Of a stretch of 64,000 nucleotides of DNA, positions 3,570-25,793 are shown piece by piece. The notes under the pieces were generated by a model, which had not been told where the DNA came from, ran no database searches, and saw only the letters and a program-made list of their open reading frames with translations. The DNA comes from the human T2T-CHM13v2.0 reference genome, Homo sapiens. The DNA is taken from the NCBI RefSeq assembly GCF_009914755.1, contig NC_060940.1, one strand, 5' to 3'. Positions within the stretch are counted from its first letter, which is position 1. Each line of letters starts with the position of its first letter. The position numbers and the translations under genes are program-made.

Positions 3570-6035
3570 TCAGCTCAACCTCCGCCTCTTGGGTTCGGGT
3601 AATGATGGTTCCACGTCAGCGGCCCTCCGCCTCTTGGGTTTGCGTGACGGTTCCACGTCACCGACCCTCCGCCTCTTGGGTTCGGGTGATGATGGTTCCA
3701 CGTCAGCGGCCCTCCGCCTCTTGGGTTTGCGTGACGGTTCCACATCACCGACCCTCCGCCTCTTGGGTTCGGGTGATGATGGTTCCACGTCAGCGGCCCT
3801 CCGCCTCTTGGGTTTGCGTGACGGTTCCACGTCACCGACCCTCCGCCTCTTGGGTTCGGGAGGTGGTTCCATCTCAGCCGCCCTCTGCCTCTTGGGTTTG
3901 CGTGGTTTTTCTGCCTCAGCCTCCTGAGTAGCTAAGGGAGGTGTCTTGAGATTATCATCGGCTGAGGGTGGAAGCGGCCCCCGCAGACGCTCGGCAGGTG
4001 TCTTGATATTATCATCTGCTGAGGGTGGAGCTGAGGGTGGAAGGGGAGTGAGCTGACGCTCAGAAGGTGTCTTGAGATTATCATCCGCTGAGGGTGGAAG
4101 CGGCCCCCGCAGACGCTCGGCAGGTGTCTTGATATTATCATCTGCTGAGGGTGGAGCTGAGGGTGGAAGGGGAGTGAGCTGACGCTCGGAAGGTGTCTTG
4201 AGATTATCATCCGCTGAGGGTGGAAGCGGCCCCCGCAGACGCTCGGCAGGTGTCTTGATATTATCATCTGCTGAGGGTGGAGCTGAGGGTGGAAGGGGAG
4301 TGAGCTGACGCTCGGAAGGTGTCTTGAGATTATCATCCGCTGAGGGTGGAAGCGGCCCCCGCAGACGCTCGGCCGGTGTCTTGATATTATCATCTGCTGA
4401 GGGTGGAGCTGAGGGTGGAAGGGGAGTGAGCTGACGCTCGGAAGGTGTCTTGAGATTATCATCCGCTGAGGGTGGAAGCGGCCCCCGCAGACGCTCCCCG
4501 CAGACGCTCGGCAGGTGTCTTGATATTATCATCTGCTGAGGGTGGAGCTGAGGGTGGAAGGGGAGTGAGCTGACGCTCGGAAGGTGTCTTGAGATTATCA
4601 TCCGCTGAGGGTGGAAGCGGCCCCCGCAGACGCTCGGCAGGTGTCTTGATATTATCATCTGCTGAGGGTGGAGCTGAGGGTGGAAGGGGAGTGAGCTGAC
4701 GCTCGGAAGGTGTCTTGAGATTATCATCCGCTGAGGGTGGAAGCGGCCCCCGCAGACGCTCGGCAGGTGTCTTGATATTATCATCTGCTGAGGGTGGAGC
4801 TGAGGGTGGAAGGGGAGTGAGCTGACGCTCGGAAGGTGTCTTGAGATTATCATCCGCTGAGGGTGGAAGCGGCCCCCGCAGACGCTCGGCAGGTGTCTTG
4901 ATATTATCATCTGCTGAGGGTGGAGCTGAGGGTGGAAGGGGAGTGAGCTGACGCTCGGAAGGTGTCTTGAGATTATCATCGGCTGATGGTGGAAGCGGAA
5001 TCCGCAGACGCTCAGCAGGTATCTTGATATTATCATCTGCTGAGAGTGGAGCTGAGGGTGGAATGGGAGTGAGCTGACGCTCGGAAGGTGTCTTGAGATT
5101 ATCATCCGCTGAGGGTGGAAGGCAGGTGTCTTGATATTATCATCTGCTGAGGGTGGAGCTGAGGGTGGAAGGGGAGTGAGCTGACGCTCGGAAGGTGTCT
5201 TGAGATTATCATCCGCTGAGGGTGGAAGCGGCCCCCGCAGACGCTCGGCAGGTGTCTTGATATTATCATCTGCTGAGGGTGGAGCTGAGGGTGGAAGGGG
5301 AGTGAGCTGACGCTCGGAAGGTGTCTTGAGATTATCATCCGCTGAGGGTGGAAGCGGCCCCCGCAGACGCTCGGCAGGTGTCTTGATATTATCATCTGCT
5401 GAGGGTGGAGCTGAGGGTGGAAGGGGAGTGAGCTGACGCTCGGAAGGTGTCTTGAGATTATCATCCGCTGAGGGTGGAAGCGGCCCCCGCAGACGCTCGG
5501 CAGGTGTCTTGATATTATCATCTGCTGAGGGTGGAGCTGAGGGTGGAAGGGGAGTGAGCTGATGCTCGGAAGGTGTCTTGAGATTATCATCCGCTGAGGG
5601 TGGAAGGGGATGGAGCAGACACTCGGCACGTGTCTTGAGATTATCATCCGCTGAGGGTGGAGCTGAGGGTGGAGCTGAGGGTGGAAGGGGAGTGAGCAGA
5701 CACTCGGGAGGTGTCTTGAGATTATCATCCGCTGAGGGTGGAAGGGGAGTGAGCAGACACTCGGGAGGTGTCTTGAGATTATCATCCGCTGAGGGTGGAA
5801 GGGGAGTGAGCAGACACTCAGGAGGTGTCTTGAGATTATCATCCGCTGAGGGTGGAAGGGGAGTGAGCAGACACTCGGGAGGTGTCTTGAGGCTCAGGGA
5901 GTTATCAGTTATAGAATGTTGTTGAGTTGGAGGAGGTGGCTGGTGGCCCATCCTGTTTTTTAAAGTTTCAGCTGTGAGGTAGGGCCAGTAGGGCAATCCT
6001 GAAGAATGACGATGCTCCGCTGCCGCCATTCTGAC
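3570..6035 (-). CDS. NPIPB: NPIPB terminal coding exon (821 aa plus stop): [17 protein letters not shown]..., Pro-rich VNTR and basic C-terminal repeat
   Basis: Within ORF 3570..6065. Acceptor ccctacag at 6036-6043. Matches the recalled NPIPB3/B4/B5-type C-terminal region. Confidence 0.95.
3579..3910 (-). repeat. Coding VNTR 2: 87-bp (29 aa) unit made of 42+45-bp subunits, encoding a PKRRR array
   Basis: ctcttgggttcggg recurs every 87 bp. Protein [29 protein letters not shown]. Confidence 0.95.
3935..5895 (-). repeat. Coding VNTR 1: 57-bp (19 aa) and 69-bp (23 aa) units, mostly alternating as a 126-bp dimer
   Basis: Repeated gtgtcttgagattatcatccgctgagggtggaag / gtgtcttgatattatcatctgctgagggtggagctgagggtggaag. 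Confidence 0.97.
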
Positions 6036-7395
6036 CTGTAGGGCCAAAGGAGGGAATGTTTTCACACATATTCATTTGATGGACAAAATTACCGCCACCA
6101 ACACAGTCTGCACCTTCTGTTGCTGGTGATAGATTTTTGCACCTTTCCATCCTCCAGGTTTCAAAATAGCAGTATCAGTGTCATAATATCACCCTTCCAC
6201 TGAGTACTGCCAACAGCTGGAGGGTAAAGGAAAGTCATTGGGACACACTGTTGTCTCCACATGCCACTGTGTCTGTCTGCAAATGTAGGCAGGCTGGGGT
6301 CCTGCCCCAGGGAAGACAGAGTCATAACAGAGTAATAAAGAAGCATGTTTGAGACACAGGAGTGTCTATGTCTATCCTCATTCCTCCCTCACAGCCATCA
6401 CCAGAGCATGTTTCTTGCACCAGGTCAACAGACAGTAAGAGACAGTAAGAGAGGCATGAAAAGCCCACTGTCCACACATGTTGCAGCTTCTTTTTGGAGA
6501 ATGTTTTCCAGGCCTTTTATGTTCTGTCTCTGACTCTCAGAACTCTGCAAGGTCAGTGTGACCACCCTGCTCCAAATCTAAGAAAACAGAGGTTTCCAGA
6601 GGAAGGAGAAATTGTGCCCAGGGTCACACAGCTTGCAAGAGGCAGAGTGGAAGTTGATTCCAGCTCTGCCTGCAGGACCCTCTCATTTCCCCTCTGTTTC
6701 CCTTCTTGACAAAGGATCTTCTTCACTCTGGAGGTGCCACCCATGAGAACAAAGAGCTCTGGAGAGATGTGGATTCCTGAAGAGCTGCAGGGGAACTGGG
6801 AGAGGGTTTTCTGACAGAACAATCTCACCTCAAGAAGTCACTTAGGCATGGCTGTAATATTTCTTTTCACTCCCAGGTAATACCAAATTGTAAGTGCACT
6901 AGGACATAAAGAATACTTTTGTCCATGGAAAAATGAGGTGGGAATTCTAAACAAAGCAAGTTTTAAAACTGTGTTTCACTTCAAGTGTACAAGTCCCATC
7001 ACGTGTAATCATAGGACTCGGCAGCTTTTGAAGGTACAGAGGCCACACAAGAACCAGCTTAGCTGAGCATCATTTAAGGCCTTCATTTGGAATTGTCCCT
7101 GTGGGTAATAAGTTACATTCACTCTTCACTAGTTTACAGTCAGGGCCCATCTGCTATTACAAATACGGAACCTCTGACACTTAGAATATTAGATCAGGGG
7201 CCCCACTGGGTGGGGATGAAGGTGTTTTTGCGCAACACGGTTACCAACAGGGATGGGACTGTGATGCTTGTAGGCAGCCTTTCTCTCTGCCATCTCCCTC
7301 TGCAGGGCTTGAGCACAGAGCTGTAGGGAGAAAAATGTATCCATGTCCTGACCTGGCAGACTATGTCCAAAAGCAAGGAAAACAAGCAAACTTAC

Positions 7396-7431
7396 CCAGT
7401 TGCAAAGAGCCTTTCTTGCAGAAGGGGGGAT
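7396..7431 (-). CDS. NPIPB: NPIPB internal coding exon (36 nt, IPPSARKALCNW)
   Basis: tttttcag|ATC...TGG|gtaag; phase 0/0; joins in frame to VRMAAAE. Confidence 0.93.
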
Positions 7432-7540
7432 CTGAAAAAGCCAACACATGAGAAATTGAATGTTGAGAGAGTCTAAGGGCCGTGGCATCATCTGCATCAG
7501 CACTGAACTATCCCGCAACTGCAGGGAGGAAGCTCCTTAC

Positions 7541-7601
7541 TTTGCATTTGTGGTAGTCCTCTGCCCGCCGCCGCAACTCTTGCGCACGTTGAAACATTTT
7601 C
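7541..7601 (-). CDS. NPIPB: NPIPB internal coding exon (61 nt, KMFQRAQELRRRAEDYHKCK)
   Basis: atag|G AAA ATG...AAA|gtaag; phase 2/0. Confidence 0.93.
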
Positions 7602-7848
7602 CTATGGATTACAATCACTTTCATCAGATAAAGCACCACTTTCAGGATGATTTTAAATAATCTGCCATGTTTCTGTTATCCTCACAACTGTACCCTTACA
7701 CAATCTATCTCTACCTAGAAAACGTATTTCAGATGGCTATAAGAGTACAGTCTGAGCCGGTCACGGTGGCTGACGCCTGTAATCCCAGCACTCTGGGAGG
7801 GCGGGGCAGATGGATCACGAGGTCAGGAGATTGAGACCATTGTGGCTA

Positions 7849-8103
<255 letters not shown>

Positions 8104-8610
8104 TTACTGCCTGCTGACTTCTGAGATGATAGTTTCCTTCCCCATTCTCAGTACATCCCTAATTCATCCTTCATTGAGCATCTTTTATCATAAAGCTGTA
8201 TTCTCTTTGTATTAATATCCTTACCGTGTTTCACAGGGCAGAAACAGCTGGGCTTATAAACAGGCATAGTCCTTTTGAAGGATGTGGTTGATCCTACAAC
8301 AACACACTTTCCTAAGGATGACAACAACTCACCCCACCCCTAGAATGGCTGGTATGAACCGAGTTTCCACACAGTCTAGCTGGCAATGGGGTCAGGAGAC
8401 GTTTTGCTACTTCACATCTTTTGGTCACTGGTAAATATTAAGGTACTTTGTTTTCTGTTTTGTGAACTCTCTCTCGCTCTCTCTCACGATATGTCTTCTG
8501 ACCGTTTGTTTCTATTTCTGCATTTACTGGGTCTAAATACTGTACAAAGGTTAAAAACAACACTCCAATGGGCGTTTCCCAGGAGGGTGGGGTTCAGTTT
8601 CTGAACTCAC

Positions 8611-8718
8611 TTGTAGGTGTGTATTTCTTTCATATCCAATTTCCCATTTTCCTCTGCCTCTGATACCTGCCTCTCCTTTTCTGCATGCTCACATTCTTTC
8701 ACGCTTAGTTTCCTCAGA
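8611..8718 (-). pseudogene. NPIPA-type 108-nt cassette exon ([35 protein letters not shown]) with inactivated acceptor
   Basis: Open in frame, donor gtgagt intact, acceptor reads ttctaa instead of ttctag. The peptide matches the segment I recall in NPIPA proteins. Confidence 0.85.
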
Positions 8719-10673
8719 TTAGAAGGGAGAGAAATGCACACACATGATCCACCAGCCCGTGTGGGATTCCCTCTGCCCTTCTGGCATCTGAAGGCTGTGA
8801 TTCAAAGATCCCCCCTGCAACCTTCCCACAAATGAACCAACTGATTCTCACAACCGAAGGGAGAATTGACACCTCCCATTGAGGGACAAAAAAAAGTCAC
8901 ACTCTGGCCTGCTGGCAAGTCACCTGTCATTTCCAGCTCATCTTCATAGTTCCATAGTTAGTCCTATTCTTTAGTAAATATAAAGACTATTAAAAGCTTC
9001 TATGAGGTGCACTATGTGTGTCTCTGGGGTCAGTCTTGTGCTTGACACAGCGAAAGCTCATTTTAGTTCAGTGTGAAAAACCAGACCTCACCAATTCATC
9101 ACAACTAACTCCATCGGAAGCAGAGGATTGCTCCTCATCTGACTCCTCCTGTGTGAGACCTTATTCTCAGTCAGAGGCTGATGCCGGAACTGAGACCATC
9201 AGCCATAGAGAGATCCTTCCAGAATAACCCCGCAGTTCACTACTGCACTTTGCCATGATTCAGGACTGGAACTCTTGTCATCGACTTTAAAGATCCTGGT
9301 TGAGAGAAAAGGCAATCTGAATGCTGGGCGCATCTATTGAATTAGAAATGATCGGAATGGCTCCTAAGTCAGGGTGTTATGTCCTGAAAATAGGTGACAA
9401 CGGCAAACCATCCACCCTGGTGTTGACTGACTTTAACAAGGTTCAGTTCACAGAGATTGAGGGCAGAAAAAGGAAACGGCCTAAAAAGGGTAAGTTTGCT
9501 GTGTTGCCCTCACTCCACTTGATTCATGGTCCTGATCCTAAGGATCTCACCTGATACTTGGTTTTATAGGAAGGATGTGTAAAATTCCCAGAACGCTAGG
9601 AAACAGGGGCGAAAACACTTCAAAGAGAAAGTTAATGAACTTGTTTCTGACCACAAGGCATCCTTCAGCACATGCTGTCTGGAGTGGCCTCAAACAAGGA
9701 GTGTGTGGTGTGGTGCTGAGAATGCAATGGGAGCAGGGTCCTGTCCCCACGCTAAAGAAGCTCACAGCTTAATGCAAATGAGAAGCCAGTGAGGACATCA
9801 CTACTCCTGCTGTGCACTTGGGAACTAGAAACACAAAACCTGACTCTGGAGGGAAGCTAAGGAAGCATTCTACTCTTGAGTTGACATAAGTGCATCTGAA
9901 GCTTCTGATCTCCGATGAGAACAATGGGGGACACCAAACAGAATATAAAACCCATGATTGAATACATCAAATTGCTAACATGGCAGTAAACAGACATGAG
10001 GTGAAGATGGAGAAGAAGGAAACCCAGGACGAAAGTCAGCCTCGCATTTGGAACCCATTTCCCTGAGTTTCATTGCTGAATTCCAGAAGGAACTACTGAG
10101 ATGCAAAGAAGCACAGCAGCTTTTGCACACATGCGTGGGATTAGATGGAAAACAAGTGGATTGAGGGTCTGCCAATGAAAGCGACCCGTACTGAAGTCCA
10201 CTGGCTCTGGTTGAGACCCAGAAGAGTCATGCATCAGAATAAAGGTGGACAGGAAATACCCTGGCCTTTGTAGGGACTGAGCCTGCACCGACGACTTCAA
10301 TTGCAGCCTGTATGGAGGACCCCTGACCATCCCCCAGAAGTAGACTCCCATCTCTTCTGCAGCAAGATAACATGCTACTAGGCCTCAATTCATTGCTAAA
10401 CATTTTTTAACAAGTATCTCACATTTAACAAAAAAAGATCAGTCATATGGCAGCAAAATACAATGTCATATGACCAAAACATGAAAGACTGTGAAAATGA
10501 ATCTGGAGGTGACCCAAGCATTGAATTCAACAATCCAGGCTGGGTGCGGTGGCTCACACTGGGAGGCTGAGGTAGGCAGATCACCTGAGGTCAGGAGTTC
10601 AAGACTAGCCTGGCCAACATGGTGAACCCGTCTCTACTAAAAATACAAAAATTGGGCCGGGCACGGTGGCTCA

Positions 10674-10993
<320 letters not shown>

Positions 10994-11196
10994 CTACTCG
11001 GGAAGCTGAGGCAGAATTGCTTCAAACTGGGAGGCAGAGGTTGCAGTGAGCCAAGATTGCACCATAGCACTCCAGCCTGGGCGACAGAGCGAGACTCTAT
11101 CTCAAAATTAAAAAAAAAAAAAAAAAAAAAAAAGGCTGGCTGTGGTGGCTCACGCCTCTAATACCAGCACTTTGGGAGGCTGAGGCAGGTGGATTA

Positions 11197-11454
<258 letters not shown>

Positions 11455-11671
11455 CTAGCAACTCCTCTTCCTCCGAAAAAATGAAAACAAGAATGTAGGA
11501 AGGGAAAGGAATTATACAGCTTAAACTAATGAAGCAGAAAGGACAAACTCAATTTTGAACCCACTGAATTTGCCACAAATATTGTAGAAAATATTCTCAA
11601 GGACTTTACAGTTGTCTACTTTGATTGGCACATGGTTCATACAACAGTATTTGTGTCAAGGCACATCTTAC

Positions 11672-11867
11672 TGTTTTCTGGCGGTCTTCCTCTTTCCATT
11701 GATTTTGTCATGATGGTTGATTTTCGTTGTCACCTTCCTCTTACGGATTTTAGCTCTAACTTTTGTTTCCACATGTCTCCGTAGAGTAATGACGTCTTTC
11801 AGGCCAATTTTATTTCCTCGAAAGGAAGAAACTCTTTTCTTTGTGTGCATACAAATGGACCTCAGCC
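11672..11867 (-). CDS. NPIPB: NPIPB internal coding exon (196 nt, [11 protein letters not shown]...KTARKQ), with the NPIPB-type 17-codon 5' extension
   Basis: ccaag|GG CTG AGG...AAA CA|gtaag; Lys/Arg-rich; part of ORF 11668..12045. Confidence 0.92.
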
Positions 11868-11979
11868 CTTGGTGAGAGTGAGGAGAGGAGAAGGTGAGAA
11901 ACCTGAGGGCAAGAAGCTGTTCTTTCCCTTTCCAGGGCAAACTCATTTCCACACTATGCGGATTCCAACAGAGCCATAC

Positions 11980-12079
11980 CTTCCTGTCTACGGCGGTTGG
12001 ACCTCCAGGCTCTCTGCTGTACATCCGTGGATCCATCATGTCCATTTCGAGACCAGAAGATAGTCTTCAGGAGAGACAC
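11980..12079 (-). CDS. NPIPB: NPIPB internal coding exon (100 nt, [33 protein letters not shown])
   Basis: ttcctag|GTG...GAA G|gtatgg; phase 0/1. Confidence 0.93.
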
Positions 12080-12535
12080 CTAGGAAATAATAATATAAGA
12101 ATGACGGCTGGGCACGGTGGCTCATGCGTATAATCCCAGTACTTCGGGAGGCCGAGGCAGGTGGATCACGGGGTCAGGAGTTCAAGACCAGCCTGGCCAA
12201 GATGGTGAAACCCCGTCTCTACTAAAAATACAAAAATTAGCCGGGCATGGCAGCGGGCGCCTGTAATCCAAGCTACTCGGGAGGCTGAGGCAGAGAACCG
12301 TTTGAAGCTGGGAGGCGGAGGTTGCAGTGAGCCGAGATCACACCACTGCACTCCAGCCTGAGCGACAGAATGAGACTCTGTCACATACACACACACACAC
12401 ACAAGAATGACATGAGGCTGGCACGGTGGCTCACTCCTGTAATCCCAGCACTTTGGGAGGCCGAGGCAGGCGGATCACCTGAGGTCGGGAGTTTGAGACC
12501 AGCCTCACCAACATGGAGAAACGCTGTCTCTGCTA

Positions 12536-12733
<198 letters not shown>

Positions 12734-12736
12734 TCA

Positions 12737-13032
<296 letters not shown>

Positions 13033-13476
13033 TCACACAACTGAACTGTACACTTCAACACGGTTAGATGGTAATTATCATCTTATAAGTATTTTACCAC
13101 AGGTTAACATGTTTCACAACTTGAAAAGGAAGTAATTACCTTCAGCTCTCTGAGTTCTAGAATTTGTAACATTTCATCCCCTGCTCCTTCCTGATCTGCA
13201 CTGGAGCATCTTCCTTCTGTCCCTGCTCTACTCAGAGTTCACTTTCCCTTCCCTCACATCAGCTTCATTGAGGCTGGTTTGAACTTAACGCAAAACATTC
13301 TCACTAATGACTGAATTCCCACCAAGATTTCCATATTATCACAGTATGCTTTTAATCTTCTAAGATATTAAATATTTCTTCTCATCATAGCTAAAATGCA
13401 ATGCAAATCCCATCTCAGATGTGGGTCAGATACCTATGAATCTCCTGAGGTGGTCATTGAAATGACTTTTTCTTGA

Positions 13477-13797
<321 letters not shown>

Positions 13798-14183
13798 TGA
13801 TTTCTGCACATAGGATAAAAAAAAAATCATGTACTAGGATTTCGAGAGAAGCAATGGGTAATCTAAAAAGATGAAAAGAGCAACCACGTCAATCCCACAG
13901 CTACTGCTAGATTTCATAGGAAAGGTAGCTGGCCCAGTTTGGAGCTAGGGGAAATGTCAAACACATGAAGAAATGAGAAGCCAAGAAATGCCATCACGCA
14001 TGAATGCTTCATGGCACCCATGATGTCCCTGCTTAGGAGGTAATGGTATAGATGACTAGATGACAAGGACAAAGATGAGAGGTGCGAAGTTGTCCAAGTC
14101 CAACAGCTCAACTGAACTTTCCTAAGTGGAATTGTTAAAAAGTGGTAAATTTAAAAACTTCCCCTGGCTCACGTGGTGGCTCA

Positions 14184-14489
<306 letters not shown>

Positions 14490-14959
14490 TTATACCGAAA
14501 ATTCTCTGTTCAGGACTAAGTGGCATAGAGAATGTTAAATGTGCCTAGATATCTTCATAACTCATATATTTTCTGTTTTCTACATATCTTGAAAGGCAGT
14601 GCCAAATGACGTGTAATTATCTAGGTGGTAAAACTGAAACATACTTCCTCTTCCCTTGAATATAAAAAAGCATTGTGGTATTAGTACTTTTATCTTGGAT
14701 CATTGTTCAGAAGGAGGTTCAGCCCCCAGACAACCACATTTTTACTGTCATGAATGGCAAGACAAAATGTAGAGCTCAACTTACCCAAAGGAAAAAAGGC
14801 TCAAAAGACAAATTATGGCACAACTTAGCAGCCAAATTCTTACCAAGTACAGACTTTTGACATACTGATCTCTCTCCAGTTCCAAGTCGGAACATGCACT
14901 TTGAATGATGTCATTCAAAATTACCCTGCCCAGACACACTTTTCATTGATTCTCTTGGA

Positions 14960-15352
14960 GGGCAGTTCTAAGAGTCTCTGGGGCTTTCTCTGCATCATGA
15001 GACGCAGTGCAGTTCTGCCCTTCACCTTCCGGCAGTTTGTCACCTCATCCCTATGACCTCACAGGAACTTTGTCTCAGGCCAATTGTTTGTTCCTTGGCC
15101 TCTTTCATTTCCCCTAAAAATCATTTGCTGCCCCTCTAAATGGCCTACATCTCCATCTATCTCCCTCTCCCCTCAGAAGAGGGTGCTCTTTAAGCATCAG
15201 CCATCCGGCCCTTCTAGCAGTCTCATTTTTCAGCTGGTTCCCATGTTTATGCCTGTTCTATGTTTTTCTTTTCCTGTTAAGCTGTCTGTTGTCAGCTCAT
15301 TTCTGCAGTGAATCTTCAGAGAGGAGATTGGAAGCTTTCCTTCCACCCATAC
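14960..15352 (+). mobile_element. Degenerate ERV1 (MER4-group-like) LTR fragment
   Basis: 3' end cctgttaagctgtctgttgtcag...cagtgaatcttcagagag...ttccttccacccatac resembles MER4-group LTR ends. Confidence 0.45.
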
Positions 15353-15683
15353 GATAGAACTACAAAGCAGAAGAGTTTAGAAAGAATTTCCTATTTAAGT
15401 GACGAAACCTCATACTCCATTTGTGATAAATAGCACAAAGGTTAAAAAAACTTATTTTTGACCAAAAGCTCTGTTGACATTCTATTAAACAAACACCGAC
15501 CTATTTAATTTTCATAATGCAAATGGCAGATGTTTTCATAATTCTTATACTAATAAATCATTTCCCTGATTTTTTGGGTAAAACCACATATTCATAATGA
15601 AGTCCAGAAATGTGAATTGTTTTATATAATTTATTCTTATTTGTGATTACAAGTATACCTCTACAGAAAGTTAGTATACTCAC

Positions 15684-15812
15684 CCAAAGGTAAACTATCC
15701 AGAGGGTAATGACAACTTTATAACTTGTCGGAAACGCAATAATGACATGTAACCAAGGACTTCCACCAAAGTCAGTCCCACGATGATGATGGTCAGCCAG
15801 AGTATTGATAAC
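15684..15812 (-). CDS. NPIPB: NPIPB common second coding exon (129 nt, [10 protein letters not shown]...[11 protein letters not shown]) with a hydrophobic, putative transmembrane segment
   Basis: ttccag|GTT...TGG|gtgagt; phase 0/0; part of ORF 15558..15860. Confidence 0.93.
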
Positions 15813-16049
15813 CTGGAATAATAATAGTTGAAATAATGAAAAGGTCAATGACACTGACAATATTTCACTCAGAAAGAATCATCCTTAGAAACCGTCAACC
15901 TCCTCCAAAAGGTAACCACATCCCTCAGATATCACCGTGGGATTCCACTGCTACAAAAAAGAACAGAAGTTAGAAGTCACATGTTTTTCAGATGGCTGGT
16001 AGTGTTTTCAGGCATTGCAAATGTGGGGTGTTGTCTTTCTTGGTATAAA

Positions 16050-16877
<828 letters not shown>

Positions 16878-16885
16878 AAGTATAA

Positions 16886-17029
<144 letters not shown>

Positions 17030-17527
17030 TAACTGGGATTACAGGCGCCTGCCACCACGCTCGGCTAATTTTTGTATTTTTAGTAGAAACAGGGTTTCAC
17101 CATCTTGGCCAGGCTGGTCTCCAACTCCTGACCTCATGATCCACCTGCCTTGGCCTCCCAAAGTGCTGGGAATACAGGTGTGAGCCACTGCACCTGGCCA
17201 GTAGTTATCTTTTCTTTAAAGTTATTTACTTGTTTTTTAAATTGATGTATAACATTGGATGCATTTATTATATATCACATGGTAAAAGAATCCCTCTAAA
17301 TAATACTTCTCTCTTGGATTATATGAATCTTTGTCATTTAAATCTCAGCATAAGTAAAAAAAAAAAAAAATACAATGAAGAGATTACTTCATTCACAAAT
17401 AAGTATCAAATTTTAGTGCTTAAAAATTAACAAGGTGGGCTGGGCGTGGTGGCTCACGCCTGCAATCCCAGCACTTTGGGAAGCCGAGGTGGGTGGACCA
17501 CGAGATCAGGAGATTGAGACCATCCTA

Positions 17528-17905
<378 letters not shown>

Positions 17906-18352
17906 TTAACTATATATTCTTGAAAACATCTCAATTTTAAATGTTTCTTTCAAGATGGTGAATTAAACAGAGATAGCCCTTCAACAGGTTGAACTCAGCA
18001 TATGCTGAGTCTGAAATGGAAATGATGAAGTTAGAGAACCATACAACAATGGTAATGATTTCAGAAACATGGTGTTGAGCAGAACAAAGCAGACACAAAA
18101 GAGTACCTATGGCATGGCATGCATCTGTATACGCGAAATTCCAGAATAAGCAAGCTAACCTATGATAAGAAAGAGACTGGCTGGGAAGACTGAGAGTTCA
18201 CTTTCTGGGGTGACATAATAGTGTAGATCTTGGCTGGGCACGGTGGTTCACGCCTGTAATCCCAACGCTTTGGGAGGCCGAGGCGGGCGGATCACCTGAG
18301 GTCGGGAGTTCAAAACCAGCCTGACCAACATGGAGAAACCCTATCTCTACTA

Positions 18353-18700
<348 letters not shown>

Positions 18701-18717
18701 TCAAGAGATGGAGACTA

Positions 18718-18999
<282 letters not shown>

Positions 19000-19519
19000 C
19001 TACTCAGGAGGCTGAGGCAGGACAATTGCTTGAACCCCAGAAGCGGAGGTTGCAGTGAGCCGAGATCTTGCCACTGCACTCCAGCCTGGGCGACAGAGTG
19101 AGACTCTGTCTAAAAAAAAAAAAAAAAAAAAAAAAGTCATCAAACCAGATGACACAAATCAAATGACATTTCACTTTGTTTTGGTCCATTTTCTTTGTTA
19201 AAAACAAGAGTGCAGCGGGGCCATCTCGGCTCACTGCAACGTCCAGCTCCTGGGCCCAAGCGATCCTCCCACCTCAGCCTCTCCAGTAACTGGGATAACA
19301 GGTACGCACCACCAGGCCCGACTAATCTTTATTGGAATTTTTTGTAGAGATGGGGTTTCGCTATGATGCCCTGGCTAGTCTTCAACTCCTGGACTCAAGT
19401 GATCTGCCCACCTCGGCCCCCTAAAGTGCTGGGATTACAGGCCTGAGCTGTGTAATTTCATGCCACGTGATACAGCCCAGTAAAAAGGAAGAAACCCCAC
19501 GGGTCCAGCGTCTACTCAC

Positions 19520-19594
19520 AGAGATGCACTGATGGCTGATAAATTCCAGTAGGAGCCCAAAGAGGAGCCAAAAGAGCATCCACCGCACCCGCAT
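19520..19594 (-). CDS. NPIPB: Alternative NPIP first coding exon, signal-peptide-like (MRVRWMLFWLLFGLLLEFISHQCIS)
   Basis: ATG at 19594, 25 codons, donor gtgagt, phase 0. Resembles the MRLRW... N-terminus recalled from other NPIPB paralogs. Confidence 0.7.
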
Positions 19595-19650
19595 GTCCTG
19601 GTCCTTTCAGGGCGCCCTGAGGCGGCCAGGACAGAGGTGGAGGTGGCTTA

Positions 19651-19830
19651 GGGCAGGGGGGAGGGAAGGGGACGGGACCGGGGCCGGATCTGAGTTGGGG
19701 AGGGGGAGGGGAGGGGGAGGGGAAGGGGAGGGGAAGGGGGGAAGTAAGGGAAGGGAAAGGAGGAGAAGGGGGCTGTTGGGCACCTGGAGGAGGTGGAGGA
19801 GGAGGAGGAGAAGAAGAAAGGGGTCTGGGA
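19651..19830 (+). repeat. G/A-rich low-complexity tract, G-quadruplex-capable, in a GC-rich promoter-like region
   Basis: ggggagggggaggggagggggaggggaaggggaggggaagggggg followed by (gga)n. Confidence 0.8.
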
Positions 19831-20023
19831 AAGGATCCGGTTCAAATTAAGTTCTCAAGCGCTGGTGGAAGGTTTAGCTACAGGTCACGGAGAAGATCAG
19901 GGAAGCAACAGGACACGCGGGGCAAGGGAGCGTGAGGCTTAGGAGCAATCAGAGGGAGACAAAAAGGTTCTGCTATCCACCAAACCTTCTTCGGTCTGGG
20001 CCCTCCCTTACCAACCCTGGGGC

Positions 20024-20045
20024 TTTATACTCCCTCTCCACCAAT
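20024..20045 (-). promoter_or_regulatory. Candidate TATA box (TATAAA 20029-20024) with an adjacent CCAAT motif, upstream of the signal-peptide exon
   Basis: Motifs seen directly, about 430 nt upstream of ATG 19594. Function is inferred only. Confidence 0.35.
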
Positions 20046-20338
20046 CCCTGATGACCCCGGTGGTGCCTCACAATGGACAGTGCCTCACAATGGACAATGC
20101 CAAGTAGCGCCCGCATCATTCCAATGACCCCTCCCCCATCTCAGTCTCCCACACTCCTCCCAAAGACAGGTCCTCTCTGGAACCTTCACAAACCTGATTT
20201 CTGGTCCTCCCCAACCAGCTCCCTGTCCCTGCTTCTGGGCGCTCCTTCCTTCCTGAGCTCCCAGGGTTCCTCAAGGTCACTTATGGCGACAAAACATAAA
20301 AAACAAATGATGGCAGGATGGCAGGAAGAACCTCATAC

Positions 20339-20401
20339 CCAAGCAGAGTGCCAGGTTTTACAGCCTCCGCTCAGCCATTCATATCCTAAGCAACAAAACA
20401 T
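20339..20401 (-). CDS. NPIPB: Alternative NPIPA-type first coding exon ([21 protein letters not shown])
   Basis: ATG at 20401, 21 codons, donor gtatga, phase 0. Matches the recalled NPIPA1 N-terminus. Confidence 0.75.
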
Positions 20402-21458
20402 CAGCAGGGTGCGGAAGGTCCCGATAGTAAACCATCTCCATCACATCCATGTAGCCATCCGTCCATCAACCTGTATCTCAGGAACAAATGTAGATACATT
20501 CATTTTAAGCATGCCTGGTACATTTACAAAAATTAACCTGACTTATTTTGTTCCAGCAAATCTCAATATATTTGAGAGCAATCAAATCACACAGCATGTT
20601 TCTGATCATATAACTGTGCTAGAAGTCAATGATTAAAAGCTAATTCAAAATTATTATTTGCTTGGAAATTCAAAGTGCCCTTATAAGACATAAACATAAG
20701 AAAGAATCCAAAATGAAACAAGATTGCCTTTCAACTCAATGATGAGATCATAACATGGCAATAAAATGTCTCCCTCTGGCCTGGGAATTCCTCTTTGTGG
20801 CACAAGGTTGTGTGATCTCAAATCACCGCTAACCCACCTAGACATTTTAACATCCGAAACCGAGTGATGACGTCCTTATCTATATCATCTTACTGCCTGT
20901 GTGTGTGGACTTTAAATTCTGAACCCAAATGAGGGGGAGAAAACCAAGTTGACTTTCATGACTGAGCTCTCAGGGACGTCCAAGGAATCTGTGCATTTCA
21001 AGAAACAAAGTTCATCAGCTTCTCTCCTAAGGTATTTGCCCACAATACCCAGAGGGCTTGGCAGCATCATGTGTGATGGGTGGGGAGCTCCAAGCAGGTG
21101 GGCAGGACCCAGGGGCCTGGTGACCAGGACAGACCCCCACTGTCCATCAACTTTCCTGGCCCTGTCCTCTGCTAAACTTCCCACAGGCCTTCTGCCCGAT
21201 CACACAGAGTATGCCCAAACTCTCTCAGGCCTCTGGCAGCTGAAAACCACTGCTTTAAATCCCTTTACCATTTACTATGACATAAGGTTATTGTAAACAG
21301 GAAATATTCTATTGATGCTACAAATGGAAAGCCAATGCCTTTACCATAAATAGAAAAACAACCCTAAGAAGCAAGCAAAACAAAAACAAAACAGGGGCTG
21401 GGTGTGGTGGCTCACGCCTGTAATCCCAGCACTTTGGGAGGCCGAGGTGGGCGGATCA

Positions 21459-21688
<230 letters not shown>

Positions 21689-21792
21689 CTACAAACAAAC
21701 AAAAAACAGGGTTAACAAAAGTATGGAATTCAATTCTTTTTATATGCTGCAGCCATGTTCCTGCCCTAGATTTGGCTGGGCATGGTGGCTCA

Positions 21793-22147
<355 letters not shown>

Positions 22148-23399
22148 TTAGAGCAAAAGTGAATGGCAGAGAGTACTATAATGTCCATGAAGGGCTGCTA
22201 GAGTCACCGTGATCATAGCCCAAGCAGAGATAGGGAAAGGAAGATGTGAGCAGAGTTTGGGGTCTCGAACAATGGAGGTTATTCGTGCAGCCCAGGAAAG
22301 GCTCCCCAAAGCCAGGATCAACCTCCCTTGGAGGCGGTCCCTCATGGAGGCATGGTCAGGCACCTTAGATTTGAGAACAGCTATGTTGCTGCTGACCAGC
22401 TGTGTGACCCTGGGCTGGTTTCCTTCCACACAATGGGAGTGCCAATGGCTGCATGCATGCAAAGACCGTCTGAGGATAGGAGGAAGCAATCTGTTGAGCA
22501 CCCGTGTACCTGAGTGTCATCACCTCCCAAGGGCATCCTTCGTTCCAGAGCTGGCGCCTTGGAAGGCCCTTGGTCACTGAAGGCAGTGATGATGGTAACA
22601 GCAGTAAATCATCATTTACGGCTGATGAGGGAAGGCCAGGGGTAGGGCTCCTAGGTCCTGGATAAGAATGAGGGTCTGGGCACTCCTGGGGACAGCTGAG
22701 TGGTAGGACTCCTGGGTCCCCAGGGGGAAGGTCCATCTTCAGTGGCATTGGGCCTAGGCTGGGATGCTGAGTTATCCACTGGAGCATCAGCAGTACAGGC
22801 AGGCACAGAGGCAGTGGATCCATCGGAGGTGGCAGGTGTAGGATCGTCTGGTGAGCAAGTAGAGTCACCAAATCTGGCTGACCACTACCCCCACTACCCC
22901 CACTATCCCCACAGACGATGCCCTGTCCCTTGCCTCATGCTCCGGCAGGGTACAGGCTCGCACCTGGGGCCTCAAGGAGCATCTCTCTAAGACCTCTGTG
23001 TCCTGGTCATTGAATGGGCACTTGAGTCACCCAGGGCCATTGGAACAAAGAGGAAGAATCAGGCCCCACGATGTTTTGGGAGAGTGTTTAGCACAGGAAA
23101 ATGCGCAGAATACATGCACGACACGGGGGCACTGTCAGTGTGGGAGCAATGGTTTACAACCTCCAGCCCTAATCTGAGCACTCTCACCTGTGCAATCTGA
23201 AAGGAACAGGAGACTTGCAGGAAAGACAGTGCCTGGATTTAACTTAAAGGAACTAAAAATGTTGGAATTTTTACTCTTGATATCCTTCCAAATCAACTCT
23301 CTCAATGTTCCCATCCTCAAAACTATCATATGGGGTAACTGAGGCAGTCAGAGATTTACTGACTCAATGTCACTCAATTGATTCTGAGTTCACTGCTGA

Positions 23400-23486
23400 T
23401 TACATCCGACCAAACTGCTTTTTCTGAAGTCTACTCCGTTTAATCATGCTGGTGATGATTTTGTGCGGCTCTGGGACAAACTCCAC
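23400..23486 (-). pseudogene. ACSM1-derived terminal exon (VEFVPEPHKIITSMIKRSRLQKKQFGRM*) in NPIPB intron 1
   Basis: cttcagccag|GTG...ATG TAA. Aligns to the recalled ACSM1 C-terminus [28 protein letters not shown]. Confidence 0.82.
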
Positions 23487-24039
23487 CTGGCTGAAGATAA
23501 AGCAAATCTGCGGTGACTTAGTCCTCCTGTCATTTCCCATCAGTTCCCCACTCTCCTCCTCTGCCCCTCCACAGTCTCCCATGCAGGCTGACACCATATG
23601 ACGGCCTTAATGGAGTCCACCGAGTATTTCAGGTTCTCTCCTGGGCCACTTGAAAGTGGATGTACCCATGGGATTTGCTTTGACCCAGGAGATGTGAGTG
23701 GAAGTGAAGCGTGTCACCTCGAGGCAAAAGAGTTGGGAGCCATTGAGACGGGCCACTCTCTCCTTCATCTCTTAGAGCAGCTGACAGCTCCCATATGGAG
23801 GCTGCTCCTTTATTCTCGTGGCAGGATGAGGGCATGTGGGGCACAGGGCACAGGAGAGCCATGGAGGATGTGCAGCATGGGCAGGAAAAGAGCCTTCAGT
23901 GGTGTACATTTCCATAGTTTGGGGCTGTTTCTTACCTACAGTGATACCTAGCCCATCCTAGCAGGCATGCACCATCTACTCCACACTCTGTGATGCAGAC
24001 TAGCCTGCCGTCAGAACACGAACTGGTGGTCAGACACAG

Positions 24040-24240
24040 GTAGGTTTCAGTTCCAGCTCTGCCTCTTATTGACTGCAACCTCAGGCTTAACTTTCAGTCT
24101 CTGAGCCTCAGTTTCAACTCTGTAAAATGAGGTGGCTATACCATCTCAGGTTGCAGAGAGAATTAAATGAAATATAAGTGCATGTAGAGCATTGAACCCA
24201 GGGCCTGGCACACACAGTGAGTACACAATGTTAGCCAGGT
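24040..24240. mobile_element. MIR element
   Basis: ctctgagcctcagtttcaactctgtaaaatgagg...aattaaatga...gggcctggcacac. Confidence 0.75.
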
Positions 24241-24708
24241 AGCTTCATAATGCATACTGATTGTCAATATTCAGACAATGCAGTAAAGTGTTACCAAAAA
24301 TAAAAGTAAACTTATTTGCATATGTATTCTTTCAATCTTTATTTTTAAACAGGGTAAAACTATGCATATTCTTTCATAGCCAGTGTTTTTCTCTTCATAG
24401 TATATTGTTAAAATAATTTTACTTGGACCGGGTGCAGCGGCTCACACCTAAAGTCCCAGCACTTTGGGAGGCCGCGGTGGGCAGATCACGAGGTCAGGAG
24501 TTGACACGAGCCTGGCCAATATGGTGAAACCCCATCTCTACTAAGAATACAAAAATTAGCTGGGCATGGTGGCACACACCTGTAGTCCCAGCTACTCAGA
24601 GGCTGAGGCAGAGGAATTGCTTGAACCCGGGAGACGGAGGTTGCAGTGAGCCAAGATTGTGCCATTGCACTCCAGCCTGGGGGACAGAGTGAAACTCTGT
24701 CTCAAAAA

Positions 24709-24713
<5 letters not shown>

Positions 24714-24758
<45 letters not shown>
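24714..24758. repeat. (TG)n microsatellite after an Alu tail
   Basis: About 22 TG units read directly. Confidence 0.95.
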
Positions 24759-24760
<2 letters not shown>

Positions 24761-25041
24761 CTATATAAATCTCAAAAATAAAAGATCATTTTTGAGATTA
24801 TCATTTTAAAAGACAAGATAATGTTCAACTTAATGACTAATTTAATTATTACTATTGGACTTTTTGTAGACTAAACAGAGCATTCAAAACAAATGAAGGA
24901 GAATAAAAAATATGTATTACATGTTGTAAAATAAATGTGATGTGGTTAACTCTTTTATTCAAAGTTATAGAACATATATATGTACTATAGAATGTATTTC
25001 TTATTATGAGTCATGTTAAAAAGTAGTTTAGAAGCTGTTGA

Positions 25042-25305
<264 letters not shown>

Positions 25306-25673
25306 TGATCCACCAGCCTCAGCCTCCCAAAATGCTGGGATTACAGGCATGAGTCACCATGCCCAGCCTAAACTTGGCAAGATAATAAATCACCTTTTTA
25401 AGTGTCGTTGGGCACTTGTCTGGTTGTTTTTCTTTAGGTTACCATGCCAGCAATGATTCCTTTTGAGTTTCTGACAGAAGATAGTGGTTTTCATCCAAAT
25501 AAGTCAACTACTCTACCCCATCCCTAAGCCACTTGTATGGAAAGAAAAAGAGGAAGAAGCCAGTACTGTGACTGCGTAAGCTTCCCCCAGCATCACCCGC
25601 TATGAGATGTGTGGCAGCTGAGACCCGGGAACTGCTCAAGGGCACCAGGCCCCATCTGTCTGCACTCACTCAC

Positions 25674-25793
25674 CTTCCTCAGGTACTCGCATGGGCATGT
25701 CACTGACTTTACATGCTGCTGCAGCTCCTTGGTGAGCTGGCCCTGGTCATGGGACAGGAACTGTGGGGTCAGGACAATAGAGAGCTTCACCAT
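25674..25793 (-). CDS. NPIPB: NPIPB first coding exon ([40 protein letters not shown]), derived from the penultimate ACSM1-like exon
   Basis: 40 codons, donor gtgagt. Near-identical to recalled ACSM1 [43 protein letters not shown] sum 120+129+100+196+61+36+2466=3108 nt, i.e. 1035 aa. Confidence 0.92.

What the first reader, a model, noticed from the sequence alone, without database searches (positions are those of the whole stretch)
4484..5121. Dual-frame coding VNTR with an exactly compensated frameshift pair (-19 / +13)
Seen: at 5120/5121 one unit lacks the 19 nt gcggcccccgcagacgctc. This shifts translation from the Pro/acidic frame ([12 protein letters not shown]) to a His/Gln/hydrophobic frame ([23 protein letters not shown]) for about 200 aa. 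A 13-nt tandem duplication (cccgcagacgctc at 4484-4496 and 4497-4509) restores the frame (net -6), so the NLS-like tail is kept. The second frame is stop-free over the rest of the array (ORFs 3932..4462 and 5102..5842), while the third has TGA-TAA in each unit. Inference: one DNA repeat encodes two interchangeable protein domains, and unequal crossover can resize them independently or truncate the protein. Frame-switched NPIPB proteins are known; the exact lesions are mapped here.
Basis: partly seen in the sequence, partly recalled or inferred. Interest (0 to 1): 0.75.

Follow-up and report, generated by a model that had tools for sequence, protein, structure and literature searches.

The report
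Known frame-switching repeat in human NPIPB
A repeat in the last exon of a human NPIPB gene copy is read in one frame, then a second, then the first again because two inherited indels cancel out; this is already published, and the pair likely persists because losing either one would cut off the protein's basic tail.

Summary
In detail: a 19-nt deletion at 5120/5121 and a 13-nt duplication at 4484-4509 bracket 209 codons read in a second frame, and the last exon stays open for 821 aa. The switch is already published for NPIPB3/4/5/11/12/13 from 169 haplotypes and 8,986 cDNA molecules (PMC12790995), and the second-frame repeat is Pfam PF20885. All 8 long-repeat copies examined carry it, so it is inherited, not an assembly error.

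Small additions:
- NPIPB11 enters the second frame by -1, not -19, at the same unit, so the founding pair was probably -1/+13 (tree support 65/45).
- Short NPIPA-type copies enter the same frame by +2.
- This RefSeq 'pseudogene' has an intact 1,035-aa spliced ORF.
- A published MHC-I peptide lies in the shifted frame.
- AlphaFold2 orders only the shifted zone, at low confidence.

Selection for the pair is not shown. An open second frame has P of about 0.06-0.3 by chance, and keeping both lesions through 8 resizing events has P of about 0.13-0.26.

The parts
3570..6035 (-). Coding part of the last exon (exon 8) of an NPIPB12/B13-clade copy; 821 aa plus stop
   Evidence: clade from Table S5 of PMC12790995
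5121..5893 (-). VNTR zone 1, read in the Pro-rich SADDN frame (57-nt head monomers, one 81-nt unit, then four 126-nt dimers)
5104..5141 (-). Entry unit of 38 nt (57 minus 19; junction 5120/5121), which moves translation into the MIISR frame; the same unit is 56 nt (-1) in NPIPB11
4494..5120 (-). VNTR zone 2, read in the MIISR frame; 209 aa, residues 520-728 of the 1,035-aa protein; Pfam PF20885
4998..5024 (-). Codons for RYLLSVCGF, a peptide reported in an MHC-I immunopeptidome; lies in the diverged marker unit two units after the entry lesion
4484..4509 (-). 13-nt tandem duplication (70-nt exit unit) that restores the first frame; present in 8 of 8 long copies
3939..4483 (-). VNTR zone 3, back in the SADDN frame (four dimers)
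3573..3904 (-). Basic tail: 42/87-nt repeat encoding 8 PKR(R/Q)R motifs; described as AluY-derived and NLS-like
   Evidence: PMC7419210 and 10.1101/116087, passages
7396..25793 (-). Six upstream coding exons (214 aa) with GT-AG junctions; with exon 8 they give an intact 1,035-aa ORF. Pfam PF06409 in two exons; hydrophobic stretch at residues 73-91

Best explanation
This is the last-exon repeat of an NPIPB12/B13 copy in which two indels shared with its paralogs shift the middle 209 codons into a second, stop-free frame and back, and the pair likely persists because either indel alone would remove the basic tail. Shown: ordinary in-frame decoding of the spliced model gives 1,035 aa (N-terminal NPIP domain, Pro-rich zone, His/Arg-rich MIISR zone, Pro-rich zone, PKRRR tail). 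No recoding or second start is needed. Inferred history: (1) a 1-nt loss in one unit moved the rest of a then shorter array into the MIISR frame. This was tolerated because that frame is open and lies in the last exon, and it gave an ending like that of NPIPA proteins. (2) A 13-nt tandem duplication downstream restored the tail. (3) An in-frame 18-nt deletion turned -1 into -19 in the ancestor of all long copies except NPIPB11. (4) Slippage, unequal exchange or out-of-register conversion in 126-nt steps has since resized the three zones. The MIISR block is probably translated. Whether it folds or has a function of its own is unproven; I treat it as a tolerated insert first and a possible new domain second.
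For: 8 of 8 long copies have the 70-nt exit unit and an entry lesion exactly two units before the same diverged marker unit; 7 have -19 and 1 has -1. The -1 copy is NPIPB11 (214+863 = 1,077 aa, as B11_1 in Table S5). The best intron tree puts the six -19 copies tested together (65/45). Both single-lesion readings stop before the tail. The NPIPB C-terminus was reported to matter for nuclear localisation (10.1101/116087, passages). The three-zone pattern is described 'within each paralog' for 169 haplotypes and in 8,986 cDNA molecules (PMC12790995 section 10). B11 is fixed in copy number and B12/B13 is never absent (passages). A peptide from the shifted frame was reported in MT2 cells (10.1101/2025.07.08.663715 section 9); it is encoded by 7 of the 8 long copies and by none of the 8 other copies checked.
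Against: Selection is not shown: under a crude neutral model, 8 resizing events leave both lesions intact with P = 0.13-0.26. The order of events is not proven: grouping NPIPB11 with the window's trio is not rejected (p-AU 0.19), and gene conversion can distort such trees. Short NPIPA-type copies (7 of the 18 other copies) lack the tail altogether, and one copy (L019) truncates after -1 then +2, so tail-less NPIP genes exist. The peptide evidence is one chemically modified 9-mer in a preprint and cannot be assigned to this copy. The localisation work used partial clones, and one NPIPB clone was cytoplasmic. RefSeq labels this copy a transcribed pseudogene.
Confidence: 0.55

Rival explanations
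1. Adaptive new domain: the frameshift created a folded beta-solenoid inside an otherwise disordered Pro-rich array, and selection keeps the MIISR block for its own function.
For: AlphaFold2 on the 821-aa exon puts all 12 strands in residues 310-504 and leaves both SADDN zones at pLDDT 30-40. The models match parallel beta-solenoids (Z up to 10.1 and 10.0). The zone is at least 208 aa in all 8 copies. PMC12790995 predicts a beta helix and reports selection signals near B12 and brain-enriched expression.
Against: Confidence is low: mean pLDDT 51.5 for the best model of the zone alone and 23-27 for the other four. Top Z-scores are ties among unrelated solenoids at 2-12% identity and lie in the range the tool calls a common arrangement for repeats. 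My models differ from the paper's, which has both frames folding. Zone-2 variants are mostly non-synonymous in the MIISR frame, with no visible sign of constraint in small numbers.
Confidence: 0.2
2. Neutral passenger: the proteins are under little constraint, and the pair is shared only because the copies are young and exchange is reduced near the diverged units.
For: The copies differ by 1-30 sites in 4,460 intron columns. An open second frame and an intact pair are both within chance. Frameshifts into this frame recur in the family (+2, -1, -1/-19). Compensatory pairs were found preferentially in weakly conserved proteins (PMC8935012, passages).
Against: All 8 long copies keep an open 798-924-aa exon, and the 4 copies whose upstream exons were read are intact. 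B11 is fixed in copy number and B12/B13 is never deleted. The one latent stop that arose lies in the unused frame, though this is a single event.
Confidence: 0.22
3. True dual coding: the same DNA serves as two interchangeable protein domains and both frames are kept open by selection everywhere in the array.
For: Identical 57- and 69-nt units occur in all three zones. No stop in the MIISR frame occurs in zones 1 or 3 of any of the 8 copies.
Against: Each allele reads each base in one frame. Three of 8 copies carry a TGA in the SADDN frame inside zone 2. Only 13 of 378 single-base changes in the dimer would create a stop in the second frame, so the absence of stops among the few variants seen is expected.
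Confidence: 0.03
4. Assembly or sequencing artefact in a GC-rich repeat.
For: None found beyond the general difficulty of such repeats.
Against: The same exit lesion is in 8 of 8 separately located copies. The switch is reported in 169 haplotypes and 8,986 cDNA molecules and has its own Pfam family.
Confidence: 0.01

Closest known systems
NPIPB3/4/5/11/12/13 exon-8 VNTR (Dishuck et al. 2025, PMC12790995; Pfam PF20885 and PF06409)
   Same: This is that feature: alternating 19/23-residue units and a SADDN to MIISR to SADDN switch. The window's 12/10/9 units fall inside the published ranges 7-15, 6-14 and 5-11.
   Different: The passages read do not map the indels, do not mention the -1 entry in B11, and predict a helix for both frames, whereas AlphaFold2 here orders only the MIISR zone. 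My counts for two other copies (16 and 17 first-zone units) slightly exceed the published range, possibly from a different counting rule.
Pairs of compensatory frameshifting mutations (RAB36, ARHGAP6, NCR3LG1; PMC8935012)
   Same: Two indels whose sum is a multiple of 3, with a stop-free shifted stretch between them.
   Different: The six high-confidence cases have 1-2-nt indels 7-99 nt apart. Here they are about 610 nt apart inside a tandem repeat, so the shifted stretch is itself expandable. 'NPIP' has 0 occurrences in that paper's main text.
NPIPA C-terminus
   Same: Seven NPIPA-type copies end in the same MIISR frame; Table S5 holds 15 occurrences of that ending.
   Different: They enter by a +2 dinucleotide duplication in the last unit, read about 16 residues and stop. 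There is no compensation and no basic tail.
MUC1 VNTR frameshift (ADTKD-MUC1)
   Same: A frameshift in a GC-rich coding VNTR yields a long repeat protein in another frame (search listing and abstract starts).
   Different: MUC1 frameshifts are rare, uncompensated and pathogenic. The NPIPB shift is compensated and is the normal allele.
Dual-coding regions such as XLalphas/ALEX and MUC1-ARF
   Same: A long open alternative frame overlaps the main frame.
   Different: Those use two frames of the same bases from separate starts (listing; details recalled). Here the frames are used one after the other in one chain.

Membership tests
NPIP family | Pfam PF06409 NPIP domain in the internal exons | tested here: met
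   Two exons score 58.9 and 57.3 bits against a cut-off of 27.5
NPIPB3/4/5/11/12/13 subfamily | Expanded exon-8 VNTR with SADDN to MIISR to SADDN switch | tested here: met
   PF20885 606 bits against a cut-off of 36
NPIPB3/4/5/11/12/13 subfamily | MVKL first exon, no NPIPA exon 5, PKRRR tail | tested here: met
   The spliced seven-exon model starts MVKL and has 8 PKR(R/Q)R motifs
NPIPB12/B13 clade | Phylogenetic grouping with the other 16p11.2 copies | tested here: met
   1-3 differences in 4,460 intron columns among the window, L002 and L005; support 96/95. The name comes from matching Table S5 rows B12/B13 over the visible 400 residues, by eye
NPIPB3/4/5/11/12/13 subfamily | Predicted beta helix in the repeat | tested here: inconclusive
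   AlphaFold2: solenoid in the MIISR zone only, mean pLDDT 40.9 and 51.5; for the zone alone 1 of 5 models
NPIPB3/4/5/11/12/13 subfamily | Human-specific origin (about 3.1 mya) | not testable with these tools
   No ape genomes are held; the protein search returned no relative. The date is from PMC12790995
Compensatory frameshift pair | Two non-3n indels summing to 3n with no stop between them | tested here: met
   -19 and +13; -1 and +13 in NPIPB11
Dual-coding region | The same bases translated in two frames from one allele | tested here: inconclusive
   The sequence needs only one frame per position, and 3 of 8 copies have a stop in the unused frame. Translation of the unused frame was not measured
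Pseudogene (RefSeq label) | Disrupted ORF or splice sites | tested here: not met
   Six GT-AG junctions and a 1,035-aa ORF in the annotated exon model. Expression of this exact copy was not tested

The most novel reading that the evidence does not exclude
A one-base slip, later fixed in place by a 13-nt duplication, created a human-specific folded beta-solenoid out of the alternative frame of a disordered Pro-rich repeat. NPIPB11 keeps the founding -1/+13 state, the block is translated and presented on MHC-I, and purifying selection now holds the two lesions together while the repeat resizes around them.
Probability: 0.17. Interest if true: 0.6.

Novelty: already known. Interest (0 to 1): 0.22.

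Why it matters
The feature itself is described, so the gain is modest. The mapped lesions make an open question testable: typing the entry and exit units in existing long-read haplotypes gives a direct test of purifying selection on NPIPB proteins, whose function is unknown and which lie in recurrently rearranged duplications of chromosome 16. The junction peptides differ between NPIPB11 and the other copies and so offer paralog-discriminating targets for mass spectrometry. If the MIISR block folds, it would be a clear case of a new domain made by frameshift in the human lineage.

Tried and rejected
- Tree from about 1.2 kb of flank: the 8 long copies group together (89/95) with no resolution inside. 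The downstream flank splits them differently (L003, L004, L007 differ by 22-25 sites from the rest), so it reflects neighbouring duplications and was not used.
- Longer tree: 7 of the 8 long copies plus 2 outgroups, 4,460 columns; L007 was left out because its upstream intron was not held. It is suggestive only.
- Protein database search with the MIISR zone: none of 7,992 scored candidates passed. This says nothing about apes or uncompensated isoforms.
- Table S5 search for junction peptides: 0 hits, but cells are cut at 400 characters, so it is uninformative.
- Fold searches: only generic solenoid matches; no specific homolog or function can be read from them.
- One search stopped on a script error, and undercounted zone 3 of the window by one dimer; one search has the corrected counts.
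- Assembly artefact and programmed ribosomal frameshifting were rejected: the DNA itself is in frame.
- Two further matches at C16:75.79 and 76.01 Mb were not examined. That call scored 40 of 180 candidates, so copy counts are lower bounds.

Full report
Observation. The minus strand of 3570-6035 is the last coding exon of an NPIP gene. Cut at a fixed anchor, its repeat has 30 units; 28 are 57, 69 or 81 nt, one is 38 nt (junction 5120/5121) and one is 70 nt (13-nt duplication at 4484-4509). The net change is -6, and the exon is open for 821 aa, with 209 residues read in the MIISR frame. The second frame is open across the rest of the array, and the third has stops in each unit.

The gene. Splicing the seven annotated exons gives six GT-AG junctions and one ORF of 1,035 aa starting MVKL. 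RefSeq's label 'transcribed pseudogene' therefore does not rest on a broken frame in this model. Pfam finds PF06409 (NPIP) in two upstream exons and PF20885 (NPIPB13-like MII repeat) over the shifted zone, at 606 bits against a cut-off of 36. The second frame is thus already a curated family.

What is in print. PMC12790995 (section 10 read except its last 238 characters, plus passages and supplement searches) states that the exon-8 VNTR of B3, B4, B5, B11, B12 and B13 shifts from the SADDN form to the MIISR form and back within each paralog. It gives unit ranges from 169 haplotypes, counts 8,986 cDNA molecules with the pattern, predicts a left-handed beta helix for both frames, dates the subfamily to about 3.1 mya, and notes that protein evidence is sparse. 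PMC7419210 (passages) describes the Alu-derived tail repeat. [quoted passage not shown] Four searches listed no paper whose title or abstract start maps the individual indels. The library lacks most subscription papers, I read only some hits, and figures and preprint supplements were closed, so I cannot claim the lesions are unmapped.

Paralogs. A search of the own genome scored 40 of 180 candidates and gave loci for 26 distinct NPIP copies (four loci were second matches in copies already counted). Eight have the long repeat. All 8 have the 70-nt exit unit, and in all 8 the entry lesion lies two units before the same diverged marker unit. Seven have -19 (three with a further in-frame -3). L008 has a 56-nt unit, that is -1. 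L008 is NPIPB11: 214 + 863 = 1,077 aa equals isoform B11_1 of Table S5. Since -19 equals -1 plus an in-frame -18, the simplest history is -1 first. An intron tree of 7 of the 8 copies and 2 outgroups (4,460 columns) has three lineages. L008 is 20-30 sites from the others, which are 15-19 sites apart between groups. The best tree groups the -19 copies (65/45); L008 with the window's trio is not rejected (p-AU 0.19) and L008 with the 21-23 Mb copies is marginal (0.044). The order is favoured, not shown. Of the 18 other copies, 7 short ones enter the same MIISR frame by +2 and stop after about 16 residues, one (L019) has -1 then +2 and truncates, and 10 never use it. The frame has thus been entered at least three times in the family.

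Dynamics and chance. The three zones hold 4-6, 5-7 and 2-5 dimers across the 8 copies, which needs at least 7-8 resizing events. The window and L002 differ at 1 of 4,460 intron sites and have exons of equal length, yet the shifted block sits two dimers apart, so remodelling is fast. Either lesion alone ends the protein before the tail: the first frame carried past the +13 stops at 4459, and the MIISR frame stops at 3932. Under a crude model with uniformly placed events, 8 events spare both lesions with P = 0.13-0.26, so this genome alone does not show selection. An open second frame has P = 0.06-0.3 depending on the null. One variant in zone 2 of L003, L004 and L007 is a stop in the unused first frame and Q to E in the used one; no stop occurs in the unused frame of zones 1 and 3. 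Numbers are too small to infer constraint.

Protein. The preprint 10.1101/2025.07.08.663715 (section 9 read) reports a DNCB-modified 9-mer, RYLLSVCGF, as NPIPB13 613-621 among MHC-I peptides. It maps to window 4998-5024 in the shifted frame and is encoded by 7 of the 8 long copies and none of 8 other copies checked. PMC6924539 (passages) found PeptideAtlas support for NPIPB6, a different subfamily. AlphaFold2 on the exon placed all strands in the shifted zone and left the SADDN zones disordered (mean pLDDT 40.9). The zone alone, with six paralogs, gave 51.5 in one model and 23-27 in four. Fold searches returned ties among leucine-rich repeats, pectate lyases, tailspikes and adhesins at Z up to about 10 and rmsd mostly 3-6.6. 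This is a weak hint of a solenoid, and it disagrees with the published prediction for the first frame.

Mechanism. Shown: one in-frame chain with three repeat zones and a basic tail. Inferred: -1, then +13, then -18, then resizing in 126-nt steps, with purifying selection mainly on keeping the tail (0.55). Rivals: neutral passenger (0.22), adaptive new folded domain (0.2), true dual coding (0.03), artefact (0.01).

Comparison and verdict. It is a member of the NPIPB long-VNTR subfamily and a compensatory frameshift pair in the sense of PMC8935012 (passages), unusual in spanning about 610 nt of an expandable repeat against 7-99 nt in that paper's six high-confidence cases. It resembles MUC1 VNTR frameshifts (listing only) in producing a repeat neo-protein, but it is compensated and normal. 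Already known; interest 0.22. The most useful additions are the B11 -1 state, the intact ORF of this 'pseudogene', the peptide in the shifted frame, and a defined population test of selection.

Noticed in passing
window 3570-25793 (-), LOC124907834: Annotated as a transcribed pseudogene, but the annotated exons splice to an intact 1,035-aa ORF. Table S5 lists a B12/B13 isoform whose length (1,016 aa with the shorter first exon) implies the same 821-aa last exon (my arithmetic).
   Followed up: partly
L008 (G000:C16, about 29.66 Mb): NPIPB11 enters the MIISR frame by -1 rather than -19, has a variant exit unit and a shorter tail.
   Followed up: yes
L009-L012, L016-L018: Short NPIPA-type copies end in the MIISR frame through a +2 dinucleotide duplication in the last unit.
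   Followed up: partly
L019 (G000:C16, about 15.1 Mb): A copy with -1 then +2, which passes through the MIISR frame into the third frame and stops at 111 aa: a natural uncompensated case.
   Followed up: no
L003, L004, L007, zone 2: A C-to-G change that is a stop in the unused first frame and Q to E in the used frame; the same three copies have an in-frame -3 just after the entry lesion.
   Followed up: partly
window and L002: Near-identical copies (1 difference in 4,460 intron columns) with equal exon length but the shifted block displaced by two dimers.
   Followed up: partly
window 6036-7395 (last intron): PMC12596725 (passages) places a 50-aa microprotein, PIPPI, in the last intron of most NPIP genes. 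One search lists several ATG ORFs of 33-102 aa there, none of exactly 50 aa; I did not identify which, if any, is PIPPI.
   Followed up: partly
3' flank of L003, L004, L007: The 1 kb after the gene differs by 22-25 sites from the other five long copies, while the upstream intron differs by 0-3, pointing to a duplication or conversion boundary just after the gene.
   Followed up: no
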